Shown here piece by piece: positions 9,901 to 18,900 of a stretch of DNA of 58,063 bases; within the stretch, counting starts at the first letter, position 1, and every line of letters starts with the position of its first letter. A program made the position numbers. This stretch comes from Fidelibacterota bacterium (GTDB lineage Bacteria > Fidelibacterota > Marinisomatia > Marinisomatales > UBA2128), in the NCBI GenBank assembly GCA_046861645.1, contig JBHHUM010000004.1, positions 1-58,063 on the forward strand, in the 5' to 3' direction.

Positions 9901-12900
9901 CAAGACCTAACCGAGCCATTTCCCAAACATAGTGACCATAAGCCTCATCAGTGAGGAAGGGCAAATGTCCGCGCACATCGTGAAAGATATCAGGTTCTGG
10001 CGTATACACATCTTCGTTTTGAATGCGTACGCCGGCGTACTTTTCGTCGAAGCGTCGGCTGGTGCGGATGATATCCGTTACGGGAAATTTGAACTGTGCA
10101 GTGAGAGAGAAAAAGACGTATTCATCAAGGAAGCCAGCGACAGGTGTTACTTGCCACCCGGAGAGTTTCTTCAGCTGAGTTGATAACTCAGTGAAGTCAG
10201 GTATAACCGCATCGTTGAGGTGGAGTGCCGGCAACCCCCGGAGATATTCTTCGGAGGCATATTGATCAAGAAGGGGTGCCAGTTTGTGTGAAAGATGATG
10301 CCAGATTTTATGTTCTTCAGCAGCGATGGAGTGGTAGTTTTGCTCGATCAGGTAGTCGTCTTTTGTGCCAAAAATCCTGATATTGCCAACAGCATGAGGT
10401 TTCACATTGAAGAAAAGATGGTCGTAGTTATTGTAGGCTTCGAACATGTTAACAATTTACAATAATCGGCAAAAGTCGCAAAAGTTTCGCCCTATAAAAT
10501 TGTTATCCTTTTTTCTTGCCATTTTCATCAGGTAATCATAGACTTTCACGTGCCATTTGGCTTCCCTTAATCCGGGGCAAAATCCGAGGTGGAATTGAAA
10601 ACGACTTACAAAGTTAGCCTATTGTTGTTAGGGCTGTTACTTCTGCAACAGCCTATCTCCGCAAAGACCAAGAAGTACACCGTTAAAGGCACCGTCGAAG
10701 ATGTGGACGGTGAAGCCATCAAGGGTGTTGAAGTTGTACTTCTGGATTCTGAAGGAGAAGAAGTAAAATCCGATAAGACCAGCAAGAAGGGTGCTTTCAA
10801 ATTAAAGAAGATTAAAGAAGGCAGCTATACCCTGGTTGCGGATGATGAAGACTTTGGCTCTTCATCTAAACAAATAGAGTTGAAGGATGATATAGAGGTC
10901 ATTCTGGTACTCTCCAAGACGACAGCTGAAGAAGCAGTTGAAGAAGCTGAGACAGCTGCAGAAGCAGGGGAAACTACAGAAAGAATGCCTCAGGAGGAGT
11001 ATGTTTCAACTGAATTGAGCTTTGAGGTTAAAAAGCTGCAAGCTGAGCTGGACCATGTCGGCTCACAGCTCAGGGACCTGCAAGCTAAGAGTGAAATGTG
11101 GGTCAATCCCCTTTCTATCTATAGTAAAGAGATCATCCTGAGTAATGGAAGTACGGTGTTCGGCAAGGTGGTTTACCAGGATGAAGAAATCCTCAAGGTT
11201 GAGACATTATTGGGATATCTGGTGATAAACCGGGAAGAGGTTGTGCGCATTATTGAAAATGTGGCGGGGCAGGAGGAACCAGAATATATCCCAGAGCAGA
11301 TTCGCGAGACTTACAGTCCTCCCCCCATGCCCAAATTAGCAGAGCCGCGGTATGTTGCCTCTGAACCTACCGAACGGATGTCGGATAAGCAGCGGTCTGC
11401 TAACGTGGTTCTCGTTGGTAACATTTCTGAGCTTAAGGATCGTTCCGGCAATATTACCTTCTCTGGCCAGGTAAAAAATATTGGTGGGCGGAGAGCTGAT
11501 TTTGTTAAACTCAATTTCGTTTTCCGTAAGAACTGGAGCGGTGAGACACAAACCCTGACCACATTTGTTTCGGGAACCTACCATACGTTTGATTCTGGAA
11601 TTGTGACGGACTCTTCTCTTCTTCCCGGTGCGTCGGGAAACTTTGAGTTAGTTGTACCATCGAGTTTTGGACCGTTTATTGGCTATTCTTACACGATTGA
11701 TTGGGAAGAATACGAGTGATTTTTTCTGCACGGCAAGCACGGTTCAAGCGATTGGTGCTTTTTGGGATATGCATTGGAGCAGTGCCCTGGCATATATTTT
11801 CGCAAACTACTCCAACAAGTGGTGGCGATGATTTCTTTTTGGATTTGGGTATAGTTATTGAACCGTCAACCGGTAATGAAAAAATTAATCGGTTTATCCA
11901 AGCCCCGCCTGAAAAGGTAAAATTATTCATCGACAAGGCTCCCAGTGGCTCCGTCTATATGGCCTCTACGAAGGAGCTCCAGGAGACCCTGATTCGAATC
12001 AATCGGAAGATTGAAAGCTTACAGCTTGCTTTTCAGCGACAAACGAATTACCTCAAAGAAGAGAACAACGAACTGCGTCTCATGATTACAGACCTTATGG
12101 AGCAGGTAAACACTCCTGCTGAGGTTTCTACCCCTACCGTTAGCCCGGGAGAAAAGCACTCCAACAGCGAGGAAATAACAACGACATCCCCCATAATGGA
12201 GTTAGCAAAAGGATCCTCTGTGAAAGCTCCTAATTCAAAAGAAATAGACGAAGAACAGATATCCTTGGTCGTCAAGGATGATAAGCCAGCAGTGTTCAAC
12301 CGCATGCTCTACATGAATGCCGTGTTTGCTTATCAGCGGGAAGATTATCAGACGGCAATTCGACAGTTTAAAGACTTGGCGGTAAATGTTGCGGATGATA
12401 TTACAGCGGGTAACGTGATCTATTGGATGGCAGACTGTCATTTTCAGCTCGGTCAACCCACCGAAGCCCTTTCGGTGCTCTCCCAACTGGATGCATTTAA
12501 GGGCTCTGATAAACTGGATGATGCTAAGATTCTGGAAGGTCTCTCCTTACGACAGTTGGGACGGTATGAACAAGCTACTGCAGCCTTTGCCAAGGTCGTA
12601 GAGCAGTATCCTGAAAGTGAATACTATCGTTTGGCGCAAATGGAATTCAACCGGTCTAAGAGATAGTATGAAGAAGACCTACCTTAGTATAACCGTTTTG
12701 TTGGGGTTGTTGCTGGTTGTTTCGTTGAGCGCTGTGACGCGCATATCCTATACACATCCTGGGCAGATGATAAAAATCCCCACGACCAGTACTGACCGCT
12801 CTCCCTATCTTTTCAGTGCAGGATTTGGGACGGAAATTCACAGTTTCTCTCCATTTAATACGGCCCGAGGGGTGTATTTTTACATGGATTTGTCCAAGAA

Positions 12901-15900: not shown

Positions 15901-18900
15901 AAGAGTCTTCCAGGGAAAGGGAAAAAGTACCCTCAAGGGAGGAACCTACATCCCGATATACAGGTCTGCCCATACCGGGCTTTGAATTCAGGGACTACGA
16001 TGAAGGAAAGCCTGTAGTTGAAACTTCACCAGAAGAGACAACAACAGCTCCTGCTACACCTGCTGAAGAGGCGAAAATTCTGACGCAGTCTTACACAGAT
16101 ATAAAGTCGTCTGTTCCAGAGATTTCACAGATGGAGATCAGTTGTATTTTACCAGAAGGATCTGCCCCGGAACTTATAGAGAATGTGCGGCAGATTATCA
16201 TGGTTGCCTCCCGCTTCGATAGAAGCCGGGGTGATGTTCTTTCCATCATGACCGCTTCCTTTAAAGAGAGGAAGGACGAGAAAACCGCTGAGGCTGTAAT
16301 ACTCCGCACCATTGCTCATAAGATTGATTCCTTAGAGAATGCCCAGACTACAGAAGCGACTACAGAAGGTAGTATGTTGATGGAGGAGTGGCTTCGCTGG
16401 CAGGAGGAAGAGCGTTCCCGACGAGAAGAAGAGATGAACATATTGGCTTCTGAGCTGGCAGCCTTAAGAGATAAGCTTGAGGAAAAGGAAGCCGCTGCAG
16501 AAATCAGTGAAGAAGAGATACAGTTGGCTCGCATGGACGAATATGCCAAGCAAATTAGTATGTTGCAAACTCGCCTGGACAGTCTTCAGGTAATTGCCAG
16601 CCAGGAACAGGAGAATGCCGAAGAATTATCTCAGGTAGATTTAACACCACAGGAATTAGCAGCCGCTCCTGTTCAGGAGGAGGTGTCAGGAGGTATTGAT
16701 AACCTCCCGATTTATCTAATGAGTGCTATTTCTCTATTGGCTGTTATAGCTTTAGCAGCGGTTATTATTTTCAATGGGCGGTCAAAGCCAAAATATGTTA
16801 TGCCCCCACCGTGGATGATGCCTCCACCGAAGAAAAAAAAAGTGAAGAAGACCAAGAAGAGTAAGAAAGAAAGTGGGGATCAAGAAGAAGAGCAGGCATT
16901 GGCGACACCAGCACCACCACCAGCACCGTCACAGCCGCCGCAACCGGCCATGGAAACAGAGGAAGACACCGCAGTAATGCAATCAGAGATTAAGAGTGCT
17001 CGTCAATCGGTCGTGTCTATGAGCGTAGGACAACCTGATACGGCCACATCCATAGTCCGGGAATGGCTAGAGCAAGAGGCGCCCCCTCCGCCGGAACCAG
17101 CCCAAACCGCTGAGGCCGGACCTGCTGAACCGGAGGCAGCTGCCGAGGATGAGAAGGGCAAGAAGAAGAAAAAGAAGAAAAAGTAGGCGAGGGGCTAAAG
17201 ATAATGATTACAGACTACAATACATTATCAGGTTTGGATAAAATAGCTATTATTTTCACCATCCTTGGTGAGAGCTTGGCAATAAAACTTATTAAAGGAC
17301 TCCCGGAAACGGACATCAAGAAGATACGAACAAGGATTCGCGAAATGGGAGCTGTCTCTACGGCTGTAAGGAAGCAGGTGGTAGATGAATTTTACCTTTC
17401 CTTTCTATCCAAGAAATTCAGCGAAGAGGATGGCGATTCCCAACGCCCATTTCAGTTTCTGGAGGGGATGCCCGACGAGCGTCTTCTTGCTCTGCTGGAG
17501 GTGGAAGAACCACGCATTATTGCCTTAGCCCTGGCACAAGTAAGTGCTGATCAACGACGCTTTGTTCTGGATAGACTTCCCCGGGAAGTGACTGGTCGTG
17601 TGCTGATCGAGATGGGGGTACTGCATGAGATTCCGCTGGAAGGTGTTGTCAGTATTGCTGCACAGTTGGAGGAAAAATCTCACTTTCTCCCCAGAGGAGT
17701 GGATTTCTCCAGGGGTGGTGGCAAGGATATTGCTGAAGTCCTCAGCTCCATGAGTATGGAAGAGGAGGAAAAATATCTGGAAGCTATCGGGCGAGAGTCT
17801 CCGGAACTGTTAAAGGAAATCAAAAAATACCACCTCTCTTTCGAAGATATTTTTCAATTTCCTGATACTCTCCTTAGGGATCTTATGAATTCAGTGGAGT
17901 TGGATACTATCGCCATGGCTATGAAGGGTTTGGATCAAGCTACAGTGGATCGGGTGATTGAAAATCTTCCCCAGAAGAAGCAGGCTATGTATGAACCTGT
18001 GGAAGGAGCTGTGGCCAAGCGTGAAATCGATGCTGCCCGTAAGAATATAGTGACTGCTGCCAGACAAATGGAGGAGGATGGTCGTTTCAGTCTGGAGGAT
18101 ATCCTGGGTGGTGGAGAAATGGTGGAATAGAATCCTCATGTACGATTATTACGGAGAGCCTCTCCCGAAATACCTGTGCGGGAGAGGTTTTCTCTTATTA
18201 ATAGGGTTGGTATTACTAGGGCTGAATTCTGCTGATGGTTCTGATATGTGGACAAATTCCGTCTCTGGATCCTGGACATTGACCAGTGGAAATACCGAGC
18301 AGTCTGAGTATGCGGCGACGGGTTCCTTCTCACGTAAGGGTGATATTAAGATAGGCTCTACCCTGTTGCAGGATACAGAATTGCGGATAGTGCTTTCCCA
18401 TTCCAGAGGGGTACTTGAGGATAGTCTCTATCAACATGAAGGGGAAGCAACTTTCCTGTTCGATGTCATGGCGCATCAGACGTTTTCACCATTTTTTCTT
18501 TCCGGTTGGGAATATGATTCTACCGCAGGTTTAGACTCCCGGCTGGAGGCAGGGCTGGGTCTAAAGTGGGCCTTTGGTAGTGGATTTTCTATTAGCGGAG
18601 CGGTATTATTTGAGCTGGAAGATTATAAGGGAGAAGGTCGGGTTTCTCAAATAAGATGGTCTATTCGGCCCAAATACAAAAAAACATTTCCATCAGGAAT
18701 GTCCGTGGTTTATATGGTATTCTTTAAGCCGATTCAGGGAGATTTCAATAACTATCTGATTAAAAATGACGCTTTTATTGAGTTACCCACCGCTCTACCA
18801 TGGCTTTCTATAAAACTGACAGTTGAACATGATTATAATTCTCAACCTCCCAGTGATGTTAAAAAGTGGGATAATGAAATCAATATTGGTATAAAGATAA

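What a model noticed while it worked through the whole genome (the two positions that open the first line are those of the whole stretch)
10595..18130. Stand-alone FliF/FliG/MotAB rotor cassette without a flagellum
Seven same-strand genes encode a transthyretin-like (CarboxypepD_reg) protein, two TPR proteins, MotA, MotB, a 518-aa FliF-like ring protein and a full three-domain FliG, while the genome has no FlhA, flagellin, hook, rod or other flagellar gene. Boldest reading: this is a separate ion-driven rotary machine built from an MS-ring/C-ring-stator core that turns something other than a flagellum in the cell envelope. New would be a use of the FliG-stator rotor outside flagella, conserved through the phylum Fidelibacterota (Marinimicrobia).
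Evidence so far: pfam.tsv: only FliG_N/M/C (g01507), YscJ_FliF_C (g01506), MotA_ExbB/MotB_plug (g01504/5; second pair g00396/7) and no other Fli/Flg/Flh family. FliF-like protein found in 68 of 101 Fidelibacterota genomes whereas FlhA (PF00771) over cut-off in 30 of 101 and in 0 of the 17 Marinisomatales sampled. In flagellated relatives G130 and G158 the same 7 genes lie in the same order (40-55% identity, call 53) on a contig other than the one with FlhA, and G130, G158, G135 each have two FliG_C genes, one on FlhA's contig, one in the cassette. neighbours.tsv: MotB_plug within 2 genes of FliG_N in 114 of 232 genomes of the order but only 245 of 54,296 genomes overall. Paper searches for FliG paralog/non-f [...]
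(Added by a program. Inside this text positions count along the whole contig: contig position 1 is position 1 of the stretch shown here. "Call 12" and the like, gene names such as g00115 and contig names such as C1 are that model's own, and its searches are not shown. The text may have been shortened before it was handed on; [...] marks where a part breaks off. The agent that wrote the report below was given it as the finding of a first reader that could run no searches.)

Follow-up and report, generated by a model that had tools for sequence, protein, structure and literature searches.

The report
FliG rotor cassette without a flagellum
Seven conserved neighbouring genes in a marine bacterial phylum join flagellar-type rotor and stator proteins to outer-membrane proteins in cells that have no flagellum genes, which points to an undescribed ion-driven machine in the cell envelope.

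Summary
Window 10589-18130 (+) carries seven tightly packed genes. They encode a periplasmic protein A, a CpoB-like TPR protein B, protein C, MotA, MotB, a FliF-like protein F and a three-domain FliG.

New here:
- C is modelled as a 12-stranded outer-membrane barrel fused to a long helix and a TPR domain.
- A is a lipoprotein in most lineages.
- F keeps only FliF's RBM3/collar region and the C-terminal FliG-binding motif. A periplasmic coiled coil of about 130 residues lies between them.
- Cassette FliG has lost the FliM-binding E[HN]PQ..R motif but keeps a charged torque helix.

The genome (94.5% complete) shows no FlhA, FliP, FliF N-domain, rod, hook or FliM/N.

In 151 genomes of the phylum, 93 carry the cassette and 68 of those have no flagellar marker. 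Five of five flagellated relatives checked carry it in addition to a flagellar fliG; two were read in full as a canonical flagellar cluster. Gene order is the same in 15 of 15 complete loci. Non-synonymous change is far below synonymous change.

Best reading (0.55): a stand-alone FliG-stator engine that spans the envelope. Rotation, ring formation and the load are inferred, not shown. Nine paper searches found no description.

The parts
10589..11719 (+). Gene A (376 aa). It has a signal peptide, a transthyretin-like domain (31-100, specific to this order), a long helix (135-172), a small beta-barrel (180-223), a Pro-rich linker, and a conserved C-terminal beta-sandwich (273-373) that ends in IDWEEYE. 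Most other lineages have a lipobox Cys, so A is a lipoprotein there.
   Evidence: Pfam; alignment A3, (40 invariant columns, all from residue 142 on apart from the start Met); AlphaFold model with pLDDT 77; no PDB relative by sequence; Atlas cluster of 1160 members, commonest phylum Fidelibacterota.
11701..12666 (+). Gene B (321 aa). It has an N-terminal hydrophobic segment, a coiled coil and a C-terminal TPR domain resembling CpoB/YbgF or BamD. It is duplicated in 8 of the 15 complete loci compared.
   Evidence: Pfam TPR_6, TPR_2 and YfiO; NCBIfam tol_pal_ybgF at 50.1 bits, below its cut-off of 90.1; synteny.
12617..14029 (+). Gene C (the likely start is 12671, giving 452 aa). It has a signal peptide, a 12-stranded outer-membrane-type beta-barrel (48-273), a 77-residue helix (299-375) and a TPR domain (378-446).
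   Evidence: Model with pLDDT 72.3. VIA-align: KdgM 4pr7_A at Z 17.2, rmsd 2.2, 162 residues aligned; NanC and VhGalP at Z 16.3. Foldseek top hit FapF, E 7e-6. Alignment A1 has 43% mean column identity.
14044..14835 (+). Flagellar-type stator A subunit, MotA (263 aa, 4 TM segments). It belongs to a paralogue clade specific to the cassette.
   Evidence: PDB MotA 9lu9 at E 3.5e-40; PomA 8bri at E 3.5e-29. NCBIfam best hit MotP at 180.7 bits, below cut-off. TM scan. Loop Arg and Glu are kept. Tree.
14841..15587 (+). Stator B subunit, MotB (248 aa). It has one TM segment containing the conserved Asp (in FADMMTLL), a plug region and an OmpA-like peptidoglycan-binding domain.
   Evidence: Pfam MotB_plug and OmpA; alignment to PDB MotB 6ysf/8ucs and to PomB.
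15630..17186 (+). FliF-like protein F (518 aa). The parts in order are: an N-terminal hydrophobic segment (5-23); an RBM3-like domain split by a variable insert that carries P-[IL]-P-G-F (about 30-215); a periplasmic coiled coil (about 215-345); a TM segment (363-381); a Lys/Pro-rich cytoplasmic linker; a conserved C-terminal helix (about 450-483) ending in W-L; and an acidic/Lys tail.
   Evidence: Pfam YscJ_FliF_C only. Family profile against PDB FliF: 9yh6 at 7e-7, 8z5s residues 270-459 at 1.4e-6, 6scn residues 241-439 at 1e-5. Alignment A2. Hydropathy. C-termini of true FliF proteins.
17204..18130 (+). Cassette FliG (308 aa) with N, M and C domains. The E[HN]PQ..R motif is lost. The torque helix is charged but four residues shorter in this lineage.
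   Evidence: Pfam; PDB 1lkv at E 4e-21; NCBIfam fliG at 113 bits against a cut-off of 226.7; alignments.

Best explanation
The seven genes encode a self-contained machine, independent of any flagellum, that spans the cell envelope and is driven by an ion gradient.

**Proposed mechanism**
1. MotA/MotB units of the flagellar type sit in the inner membrane. They are fixed to peptidoglycan by MotB's OmpA-like domain and gated by its plug.
2. Ion flow through the MotB Asp turns the MotA ring.
3. MotA's cytoplasmic loop (Arg/Glu) pushes on the charged torque helix of the cassette FliG.
4. FliG is held through its N domain on the conserved C-terminal helix of the FliF-like protein F.
5. F is predicted to oligomerise through its RBM3-like domain. 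A coiled coil of about 130 residues (up to about 250 in other lineages) holds that domain away from the inner membrane.
6. The moving part therefore reaches towards the outer membrane. There it meets protein C (barrel, 77-residue helix, TPR), lipoprotein A and the CpoB-like TPR protein B. These act as scaffold or bushing, or they are the load.
7. With no FliM or FliN, no FliM-binding motif and no MCP found, the engine should run in one direction and not answer to chemotaxis.

**Shown**
- Homologies and domain make-up.
- Conservation of the coupling residues.
- Independence from flagellar genes.
- Purifying selection.
- Synteny.

**Inferred**
- Binding of F to FliG.
- Ring formation.
- Rotation.
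- Contacts at the outer membrane.

**Output.** My best guess is movement or remodelling of outer-membrane or surface components, as in gliding (about 0.35 within this reading). Envelope upkeep of the Tol-Pal kind is second.
For: **Parts and homologies**
- MotA, MotB and FliG match flagellar proteins.
- the F family profile matches FliF's RBM3/collar region, E 7e-7 to 1e-5.

**Coupling features are kept**
- MotB transmembrane Asp and plug.
- In MotA, the loop Arg is kept in 16 of 16 and the loop Glu in 14 of 16 cassette sequences, and the TM3 Pro is kept. Passages I read in PMC12505986 name MotA R90/E98 and FliG R281/D288-D289 as the contact residues.
- FliG torque helix: Lys of A-[LM]-K-G, Arg/Lys, acidic residues and Arg/Lys are kept in 12 of 12.
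- F's C-terminal motif, with an invariant Trp, follows the pattern of 5 true FliF C-termini of the phylum.

**Features tied to a flagellum are gone**
- F has no PF01514 part.
- E[HN]PQ..R is present in 5 of 5 flagellar FliG and in 0 of 12 cassette FliG.

**Envelope reach**
- F residues 24-362 are predicted periplasmic: a TM segment at 363-381 followed by a Lys-rich stretch.
- C is an outer-membrane-type barrel.
- A is a lipoprotein or secreted protein.

**Independence from the flagellum**
- G000 lacks the flagellar families.
- Of 151 genomes, 93 have the cassette. Of those, 69 have no FlhA and 68 have neither FlhA nor a flagellar-type FliG. Thirteen FlhA-positive genomes lack the cassette (built).
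- Five of 5 flagellated genomes hold two fliG genes.
- G134 has a canonical flagellar cluster (fliF through flhB) about 0.5 Mb from the cassette.

**Selection and descent**
- FliG, G000 against the same-genus genome G099: dN 0.083, dS 2.29, ratio 0.036.
- For the other genes pN is 0.05-0.41 with pS 0.72-0.86, which is saturated.
- The same gene order is found in 15 of 15 complete loci from 15 genomes; one further locus is cut by a contig end.
- The cassette MotA clade has 100/100 support.
Against: - No structure, expression or phenotype data exist. No RNA run holding the stretch was listed.
- F's insert, where FliF has its beta-collar, is poorly conserved except for P-[IL]-P-G-F. F itself was not folded. 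Ring formation is therefore open.
- In the window's own lineage the FliG torque helix is four residues shorter and has fewer acidic residues.
- All NCBIfam hits fall below the equivalog cut-offs.
- Two lineages of the phylum lack the cassette and any MotB_plug gene (g3, 0 of 7; g30, 0 of 22). The machine is therefore dispensable.
- No conserved neighbour gene points to a load.
- G000 is a 184-contig assembly, 94.5% complete. A 33-residue flagellin-like fragment sits at one contig end.
Confidence: 0.55

Rival explanations
1. Envelope energy transducer of the Tol-Pal, Ton or GldLM kind, without a turning ring. The stator does work on single F molecules or small oligomers. F would be a TolA- or GldM-like coiled-coil arm. 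FliG would serve only as the cytoplasmic adaptor that the stator grips. The work would serve outer-membrane tethering, constriction or lipoprotein handling.
For: - B resembles CpoB/YbgF: a coiled coil plus TPR, tol_pal_ybgF at 50 bits.
- F has a long periplasmic coiled coil next to its TM segment.
- C is an outer-membrane protein with a periplasmic TPR domain.
- MotB binds peptidoglycan, as Pal does.
- G000 has only three MotA_ExbB-family genes: the cassette gene, an ExbB-ExbD-ExbD-TonB-like set, and a second MotAB pair. None looks like TolQ.
- TolB_N gave only weak matches in short frames, in 7 of 31 genomes of the order.
Against: - The stator is of the flagellar type (plug, OmpA-like domain, large MotA loop). 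It is not TolQR-like.
- A complete three-domain FliG with a conserved torque helix is kept.
- F's periplasmic domain is homologous to the ring-building RBM3 of FliF.
- The YbgF hit is below its cut-off and rests on TPR repeats alone.
Confidence: 0.2
2. Motor for type IX secretion, or for movement of surface adhesins that depends on type IX secretion. In this phylum no GldL/GldM motor was found, and the cassette would take the place of GldLM/GldKN.
For: - G000 has 82 matches to the type IX sorting domain Por_Secre_tail and one SprA translocon.
- SprA_N is found in 147 of 151 genomes of the phylum.
- GldM was not found: TIGR03517 in 0 of 151, GldM_1st in 0 of 81 over cut-off. GldL was not found: TIGR03513 in 0 of 81 over cut-off.
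- The lay-out is parallel: an inner-membrane 5:2-type motor, a long periplasmic arm, an outer-membrane lipoprotein and a barrel.
- A C25 (PorU-family) peptidase gene lies in the same window.
Against: - The lineages without the cassette and without any MotB_plug gene still have SprA (g3, 7 of 7; g30, 20 of 22). Secretion in this phylum therefore does not need the cassette.
- The GldL/GldM searches had no positive control, because no control genome carries the system. A divergent GldLM is not excluded.
- No type IX gene lies next to the cassette in the flanks of the 15 loci checked (50 of the 100 flanking ORFs listed were scanned).
Confidence: 0.12
3. Accessory or alternative rotor-stator set of the true flagellum, such as a second motor type or a regulator. 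It would survive as a slowly decaying leftover in lineages that lost the flagellum.
For: - Twenty-four of the 93 genomes with the cassette also have FlhA.
- FliG paralogues exist in flagellated spirochaetes. I saw only the search listing of PMC1943423; the rest is recalled.
- A flagellin-like fragment lies at a contig end of G000.
Against: - Sixty-eight carriers have no flagellar marker.
- All seven frames are intact in the 15 complete loci.
- pN is far below pS.
- The cassette has its own FliF-like protein without the part that houses the export gate, plus outer-membrane partners that no flagellum is known to use.
- The FliM-binding motif is lost in 12 of 12 cassette FliG.
- Thirteen FlhA-positive genomes do without the cassette.
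Confidence: 0.08

Closest known systems
Core of the bacterial flagellar motor (FliF MS ring, FliG, MotA/MotB or PomA/PomB stator)
   Same: - FliG with N, M and C domains.
- Stator with four-TM MotA.
- MotB with plug, transmembrane Asp and OmpA-like domain.
- F shares FliF's RBM3/collar region and its C-terminal FliG-binding motif.

   Different: - No type III export apparatus, rod, hook, filament, FliM or FliN in the genome.
- F lacks RBM1/RBM2 and gains a long periplasmic coiled coil.
- FliG has lost E[HN]PQ..R.
- The cassette adds an outer-membrane barrel-TPR protein, a lipoprotein and a CpoB-like protein.
- All hits are below the NCBIfam equivalog cut-offs.
GldLM/GldKN motor of type IX secretion and gliding in Bacteroidota (passages of PMC11205867 read; abstracts of PMC8986121 and 10.1101/2022.01.28.478170 seen)
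   Same: - An inner-membrane ion-driven motor.
- A long periplasmic arm.
- Lipoprotein and barrel partners at the outer membrane.
- The same superphylum, and the host genomes carry SprA and many sorting-domain proteins.
   Different: - No sequence relation of any cassette protein to GldL, GldM, GldK or GldN.
- A cytoplasmic FliG is present, which GldLM does not use.
- The cassette is missing from lineages that keep SprA.
Tol-Pal system with CpoB (recalled from general knowledge; NCBIfam names)
   Same: - A motor of the MotA/TolQ family.
- A peptidoglycan-binding OmpA-like domain.
- A coiled-coil inner-membrane protein.
- A coiled-coil-plus-TPR periplasmic protein.
   Different: - The stator is of the flagellar (plug-bearing) type.
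- FliG and a FliF homologue are present.
- No clear TolB.
Periplasmic stator scaffolds of elaborate flagellar motors (PflA/PflB of Campylobacter, MotX/MotY of Vibrio, collar proteins of spirochaetes). Recalled; not tested here.
   Same: TPR-rich periplasmic proteins are encoded with, or act on, MotAB-type stators.
   Different: Those scaffolds decorate a complete flagellum. Here there is none, and the TPR protein C is itself an outer-membrane barrel.
Agl-Glt gliding machinery of Myxococcus (recalled; abstract of PMC4488436 seen)
   Same: A MotAB/TolQR-family motor combined with TPR proteins, lipoproteins and outer-membrane barrels to move things at the cell surface.
   Different: Agl-Glt has no FliG and no FliF homologue. 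It is found in a different phylum. No homology was tested here.

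Membership tests
Flagellar motor | FliG with N, M and C domains | tested here: met
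   Pfam FliG_N 52 bits, FliG_M 46.6 bits and FliG_C 83.1 bits, all over cut-off. PDB FliG 1lkv at E 4e-21. The NCBIfam fliG equivalog scores 113 bits, below its cut-off of 226.7.
Flagellar motor | Charged torque helix of FliG_C facing MotA | tested here: met
   Lys, Arg/Lys, acidic and Arg/Lys positions are kept in 12 of 12 cassette FliG. The helix is four residues shorter in 7 of those 12, the window's included. The residue roles come from passages of PMC12505986.
Flagellar motor | FliG_M E[HN]PQ..R motif that binds FliM (role recalled) | tested here: not met
   Present in 5 of 5 flagellar FliG of the phylum and in 0 of 12 cassette FliG.
Flagellar motor | FliF N-terminal part (RBM1/RBM2, PF01514) | tested here: not met
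   No PF01514 hit in F or anywhere in G000. The true FliF of G134 scores 194 bits.
Flagellar motor | FliF RBM3/collar region (PF08345) | tested here: met
   31.3 bits against a cut-off of 23.8. The family profile against PDB FliF gives E 7e-7 to 1e-5 over the RBM3/collar residues. The collar insert itself is poorly conserved.
Flagellar motor | FliF C-terminal helix that binds FliG_N | tested here: inconclusive
   The motif is shared with 5 true FliF C-termini, and Trp is invariant in 17 of 17 F proteins. The profile aligns it to the C-terminus of Vibrio FliF only weakly.
Flagellar motor | Type III export apparatus (FlhA, FlhB, FliP/Q/R) | tested here: not met
   There were no FHIPEP or FliP matches in G000, and the controls rang. 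Among the 59 tblastn queries from relatives' flagellar clusters, those for the export genes found nothing. The genome is 94.5% complete.
Flagellar motor | Rod, hook and filament | tested here: not met
   No match to Flg_bb_rod or Flg_bbr_C. Flagellin_N gave only a 23.5-bit, 33-residue fragment at a contig end.
Flagellar motor | FliM/FliN C ring | tested here: not met
   No match to FliMN_C. The FliM and FliN queries from relatives found nothing.
Flagellar-type (plug-bearing) stator, as defined in PMC12505986 | Four-TM MotA with an enlarged cytoplasmic loop; MotB with plug, linker and OmpA-like domain | tested here: met
   The criteria were read in passages of the paper.
Type IX secretion motor GldLM | Homology to GldL or GldM | tested here: not met
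   No cassette protein hits GldL or GldM models in Pfam or NCBIfam. The genome searches for these families lacked a positive control.
Tol-Pal | TolQ/TolR-type motor, TolB, and CpoB over its cut-off | tested here: inconclusive
   The motor is MotAB-type. B scores 50.1 bits against a cut-off of 90.1 for YbgF. TolB_N gave weak matches only.
Zorya anti-phage system | ZorA together with ZorB | tested here: not met
   In PADLOC only MotB hits the generic ZorB models. Neither MotA nor any other cassette protein hits a ZorA model.
Agl-Glt gliding complex | Homology to Glt proteins | not tested

The most novel reading that the evidence does not exclude
The flagellar rotor-stator core (FliF RBM3 ring, FliG, MotAB) also exists as a free-standing, general-purpose rotary engine. 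In Fidelibacterota, a coiled-coil-borne ring would turn under the outer membrane against a barrel-TPR protein and a lipoprotein. It would drive surface movement, in a phylum where no GldLM motor was found. This would make it the first FliG-based rotary organelle that is not a flagellum. It would also be a living example showing that the torque module and the type III export module of the flagellum can be separated.
Probability: 0.35. Interest if true: 0.92.

Novelty: new variant of a known kind. Interest (0 to 1): 0.8.

Why it matters
FliG and FliF are treated as markers of flagella, and FliG-stator coupling is known only from the flagellar motor.

A conserved cassette that keeps this coupling in genomes with no flagellar genes would show three things:
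- The torque-generating half of the flagellum can work, and evolve, apart from the type III export half. This bears directly on the long-running question of how the flagellum was assembled from modules.
- Genome surveys that score fliG, motA and motB as 'motility' genes would misread the abundant marine SAR406/Marinimicrobia group.
- There is a concrete candidate for envelope or surface mechanics in a phylum that carries a large type IX cargo set but no recognisable GldLM motor.

The parts are few and well defined, so the idea can be tested by tomography, pull-downs and chimeric motors.

Tried and rejected
- **Complex prediction.** A run for FliG_N with F's C-terminus was not possible.
- **Expression.** No RNA holder was listed among the 13 runs returned. 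The four holders are DNA runs of one study. I did not lay reads.
- **Fold search of model A.** It found only the transthyretin-like domain, which is specific to this order. The conserved C-terminal domains stay without a named fold.
- **Profiles against PDB sequences.** The A profile gave nothing. The C profile gave only TPR hits.
- **Promoter and terminator scans.** There were 14 and 13 sites, against 12.2 and 8.2 in shuffles. This is not informative.
- **Flanking genes.** I scanned 50 of the 100 flanking ORFs listed, from 15 loci. They are housekeeping genes and vary between loci, so no conserved partner emerged. The DUF481 gene after fliG in the window has no counterpart in the other loci, and I left it out of the cassette.
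- **Range outside the phylum: not settled.**
  - The one genome-contig scan kept the best 80 of 228 relatives. All carry Marinimicrobia-type or unnamed labels, except a 1.8-kb 'Nitrospinales' contig and one 'FCB group' record.
  - Of the best 120 of 1038 relatives of C, 11 carry organism names. Ten are Marinimicrobia-type and one is 'Caldithrix abyssi'.
  - The profile search for A found 452 representatives, about 40 of them full-length. Cluster look-ups gave no organism names.
- **GldL/GldM searches.** Nothing was found over cut-off, but no control genome carries these families.
- **TolB_N.** Weak matches only.
- **Zorya.** Rejected.
- **Pseudogene or relic reading.** Rejected on the intact frames and on pN far below pS.
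- **Rooted FliG tree with other phyla.** It could not be built, because no broad FliG sample could be fetched.

Full report
**What is there.** Window 10589-18130 holds seven genes on the + strand. They overlap or lie at most 42 nt apart. A divergently transcribed aromatic amino acid hydroxylase gene bounds them upstream.

Pfam gives the following:
- A: CarboxypepD_reg.
- B and C: TPR.
- MotA: MotA_ExbB.
- MotB: MotB_plug plus OmpA.
- F (518 aa): YscJ_FliF_C only, residues 48-211.
- FliG (308 aa): FliG_N, FliG_M and FliG_C.

The DUF481 gene that follows (18078-18908) has no counterpart next to the cassette elsewhere. I do not count it as a part.

**The known parts are of the flagellar type.**
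- MotA matches solved flagellar MotA and PomA over its whole length (9lu9 at E 3.5e-40, 8bri at E 3.5e-29). It has four hydrophobic segments.
- MotB aligns to solved MotB and PomB. The alignment includes the transmembrane segment with the conserved Asp and the OmpA-like domain.
- FliG aligns to Thermotoga FliG (1lkv, E 4e-21).
- A 2025 paper on stator evolution defines flagellar-type stators by an enlarged MotA loop, a MotB plug and linker, and an OmpA-related domain. It names MotA R90/E98 and FliG R281/D288-D289 as the contact residues. I read passages of PMC12505986. The cassette's stator meets those criteria.
- In NCBIfam all hits fall below the equivalog cut-offs: MotA 180.7 bits against 394, FliG 113 against 226.7, and FliF 21.6 against 129.75. 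These are therefore divergent relatives, not orthologues of the flagellar genes.
- PADLOC found only generic ZorB models for MotB and no ZorA. This is not Zorya.

**The FliF-like protein.** I aligned 17 F proteins (A2). The conserved pieces, in order, are:
1. An N-terminal hydrophobic segment.
2. A helix-strand unit (residues about 30-75).
3. A variable acidic insert whose only fixed feature is P-[IL]-P-G-F.
4. A strand-helix-strand unit (about 165-215).
5. A coiled coil of variable length.
6. One transmembrane segment (363-381), followed by Lys- and Pro-rich sequence.
7. A conserved helix near the C-terminus ending in an invariant Trp followed by Leu or Met, before a variable acidic/Lys tail.

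A profile of this family finds solved FliF chains and aligns to their RBM3/collar residues: 9yh6 at 7e-7, Vibrio 8z5s residues 270-459 at 1.4e-6, and Salmonella 6scn residues 241-439 at 1e-5. The part of FliF that surrounds the export gate (PF01514) is missing from F and from the whole genome.

The true FliF proteins of five flagellated members of the phylum end with the same pattern as F: P-[DE]-x-A-[AT]-x-x-[IV]-x-x-W-[LVM]. In one of the five the Trp position is Leu. By hydropathy and the positive-inside rule, residues 24-362 are periplasmic and the C-terminus is cytoplasmic.

F therefore looks like a FliF reduced to its RBM3 ring module and its FliG handle. A periplasmic coiled coil of about 130 residues (up to about 250 in other lineages) lies between the ring module and the membrane.

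**The unknown parts reach the outer membrane.**
- **Protein C.** I folded it with a 15-sequence alignment (pLDDT 72.3).
  - The model has a signal peptide, about a dozen long antiparallel strands (48-273), a 77-residue helix and a TPR domain.
  - A search that does not depend on Foldseek puts the strand region on 12-stranded outer-membrane barrels: KdgM 4pr7_A at Z 17.2, rmsd 2.2, 162 residues; NanC and VhGalP at Z 16.3.
  - Foldseek's top hits are FapF, OmpT and a designed 12-stranded barrel.
- **Protein A.** The model has pLDDT 77.
  - It shows a transthyretin-like domain, a long helix, a small beta-barrel and a C-terminal beta-sandwich.
  - The alignment shows that the transthyretin-like domain exists only in the window's order. 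Most other lineages instead have a lipobox Cys.
  - The conserved core has no solved relative by sequence.
- **Protein B.** It is a coiled-coil-plus-TPR protein with a sub-threshold likeness to CpoB/YbgF and BamD.

**No flagellum in this genome.** G000 (2.51 Mb, 184 contigs, 94.47% complete) gave no match to FHIPEP, Flg_bb_rod, FliMN_C, FliP, YscJ_FliF or Flg_bbr_C. Each search rang in 4 of 14 control genomes.

Fifty-nine ORFs from the flagellar clusters of G134, G010 and G004 were run against G000 by tblastn. Only these matched:
- MotA and MotB.
- FliI, on ATP-synthase genes.
- FliG, which hit the cassette gene at 23% identity.
- The FlgD Ig domain, which hit short stretches that coincide with type-IX sorting-domain matches.

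An MCP query found nothing. The one blemish is a 33-residue flagellin-N-like stretch at the very end of contig C49. The similarity stops after it, and a TonB-dependent-receptor-like gene begins in another frame. This is a remnant or a chimeric contig end.

**Distribution.** In a sample of 151 genomes of the phylum:
- The F protein has a match in 93 genomes, in 23 of 25 families.
- FlhA is over cut-off in 38 genomes, and in 0 of the 30 genomes of the window's order.
- FliG_C matches fall into two classes: 35 at 132-152 bits, lying beside flagellar genes, and the rest at 108 bits or less, lying beside F.

Counting by hand-typed lists:
- 93 genomes have both F and a cassette-type FliG.
- 69 of these have no FlhA, and 68 have neither FlhA nor a flagellar-type FliG.
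- 24 of these have FlhA.
- 13 FlhA-positive genomes have no cassette.

Before counting I dropped the following:
- Four FliG_C matches in frames of 467-534 aa, which are MgtE-like in length.
- One 345-aa match in G030.
- One fragment in G149.

I counted the partial match G089:C253 as flagellar.

Two lineages lack the cassette and also lack any MotB_plug gene: g3, with genomes of about 1 Mb (0 of 7), and g30 (0 of 22).

**Coexistence with flagella.** All five flagellated genomes examined have two fliG genes. In each, the flagellar fliG lies between fliF and fliH-fliI. In G134, G004, G010 and G033 it lies on the contig that holds an FlhA match.

In the closed genome G134 I read the cluster fliF-fliG-fliH-fliI-fliK-flgD-flgE-motA-motB-fliM-fliN-fliO-fliP-fliR-flhB. 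The cassette lies about 0.5 Mb away from it.

**Conservation and descent.**
- The order A-B(-B')-C-MotA-MotB-F-FliG is the same in 15 of 15 complete loci from 15 genomes. In a sixteenth locus it holds as far as the contig runs.
- Identities to the window are 37-77% for MotA, MotB, FliG, C and the core of A. F and B vary more.
- Flanking genes differ from lineage to lineage (50 of 100 flanking ORFs scanned).
- Against the same-genus genome, FliG has dN 0.083 and dS 2.29, a ratio of 0.036. MotA, MotB and F have pN 0.05-0.19 with saturated pS.
- Against three other families of the order, pN is 0.15-0.41 with pS 0.72-0.86.
- In a maximum-likelihood tree of 22 MotA-family proteins, the 16 cassette MotA form one clade (100/100). 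It is separate from three flagellar MotA and from a second MotA type.
- Cassette FliG is 21-29% identical to the flagellar FliG of the same genome. Flagellar FliG of different classes are 54% identical to each other.

**What changed and what was kept.**
- Flagellar FliG of the phylum carry E-[HN]-P-Q ... R in the middle domain (5 of 5). Cassette FliG keep only the Glu (0 of 12 have the motif). The role of this motif in binding FliM is recalled, not tested here. Its loss fits the lack of FliM.
- The torque helix keeps its basic and acidic positions in 12 of 12. It comes in a full-length form and a form four residues shorter; the window has the shorter form.
- Cassette MotA keep the loop Arg (16 of 16), the loop Glu (14 of 16), the TM3 Pro and the TM4 motif. 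They share a one-residue deletion in the loop.

**Reading.** The simplest account of all this is a working machine of its own. A flagellar-type stator acts on FliG. FliG sits on a FliF-derived protein whose periplasmic module is carried outwards on a coiled coil. An outer-membrane barrel with a long helix and TPR domain, a lipoprotein and a CpoB-like protein complete a trans-envelope assembly.

I give this 0.55. Within it, rotation of an F/FliG ring is the likeliest mode. The likeliest output is movement at the outer membrane or cell surface. The engine should lack switching, because FliM, FliN and MCPs were not found.

The steps from 'homologous and conserved' to 'binds', 'forms a ring' and 'rotates' are inferences.

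**Rivals.**
- **A Tol-Pal-like or GldM-like transducer without a ring (0.2).** This is fed by B's likeness to CpoB, by F's coiled coil, and by the absence of a TolQ-like gene among the three MotA_ExbB-family genes of G000.
- **A link to type IX secretion (0.12).** This is tempting.
  - G000 has 82 sorting-domain matches and SprA.
  - SprA is in 147 of 151 genomes.
  - GldM and GldL were not found.
  - However, those searches had no positive control. The cassette-free lineages also keep SprA, so the cassette cannot be the core secretion motor.
- **A flagellar accessory or leftover (0.08).** This fails on distribution, selection and the extra outer-membrane parts.

**Known or new.** Nine full-text searches found no description of such a cassette. 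The terms combined FliG, FliF-like, MotAB, non-flagellar, paralog, Marinimicrobia, Fidelibacter, type IX secretion and related words.

The description of the only cultured member of the phylum calls it non-motile and does not mention flagella, MotA or FliG. I read passages of PMC11652737. I did not see supplements of any paper. The library lacks most subscription journals, so 'not in print' holds only for what was searched.

Named relatives of C are Marinimicrobia-type, apart from one 'Caldithrix abyssi' protein label and one 1.8-kb contig filed under Nitrospinales. Whether the cassette occurs outside the phylum is open.

**Verdict.** The cassette is a real, conserved and selected unit. It is a new variant of the flagellar rotor-stator kind, placed in a new setting. 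Interest is 0.8.

Noticed in passing
G000:C168:15609-16964 (L126); 82 places genome-wide; window 56846-58063: The genome has a SprA/Sov type IX translocon and 82 matches to the type IX sorting domain. SprA_N is found in 147 of 151 genomes of the phylum. GldM (0 of 151; 0 of 81 over cut-off) and GldL (0 of 81 over cut-off) were not found, but those searches had no positive control. A Peptidase_C25 (PorU-family) gene runs off the window's 3' end.
   Followed up: partly
G000:C49:11408-11506 (L002): A 33-residue stretch like the N-terminus of flagellin (23.5 bits, below cut-off) sits at the very end of a contig. The similarity then stops and an unrelated receptor-like gene starts in another frame. 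It is a gene remnant or a chimeric contig end.
   Followed up: partly
G000:C31:18866-20972 (L113): There is a second flagellar-type MotA (270 aa, with MotA_N), then MotB (plug plus OmpA), then a DUF4352 protein, far from the cassette. This MotA type forms its own clade. By tblastn it is nearer to the flagellar MotA of relatives than the cassette MotA is. Most non-flagellated genomes of the order have two MotB_plug genes. It may be a second stator for the same rotor.
   Followed up: partly
window 18078-18908: A DUF481 outer-membrane-type protein gene abuts fliG on the same strand. It has no counterpart beside the cassette in the other 15 loci.
   Followed up: yes
window 21545-22171: An IS200-like Y1 transposase gene lies about 3.4 kb downstream of the cassette.
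   Followed up: no
window 54001-58063: G+C falls to 0.38-0.39, against 0.43-0.52 elsewhere in the window. The stretch holds an ORF with no family match, an M23 peptidase gene and the C25 peptidase gene.
   Followed up: partly
L016, L018, L026, L027, L029 (upstream of A); L018:11408-12550, L026:7032-8186, L029:6803-7939 (downstream of fliG): In 5 of 15 loci a baeRF_family10 (release-factor-like) gene precedes the cassette on the same strand. In 3 loci a further TPR protein of about 380 aa follows fliG. It may be an extra member in those lineages.
   Followed up: no
L067 (1.8-kb contig) and protein P0088: Close relatives of protein C (55-59% identity) are filed under 'Nitrospinales' and 'Caldithrix abyssi'. 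Given the short contig and the high identity, mis-binning or mislabelling is likely.
   Followed up: no
proteins P0197, P0206, P0232, P0264 and others: The C-terminal beta-sandwich of protein A recurs, often twice or three times, in longer unrelated-looking proteins of 240-620 aa. It is a wider domain family with no name.
   Followed up: no
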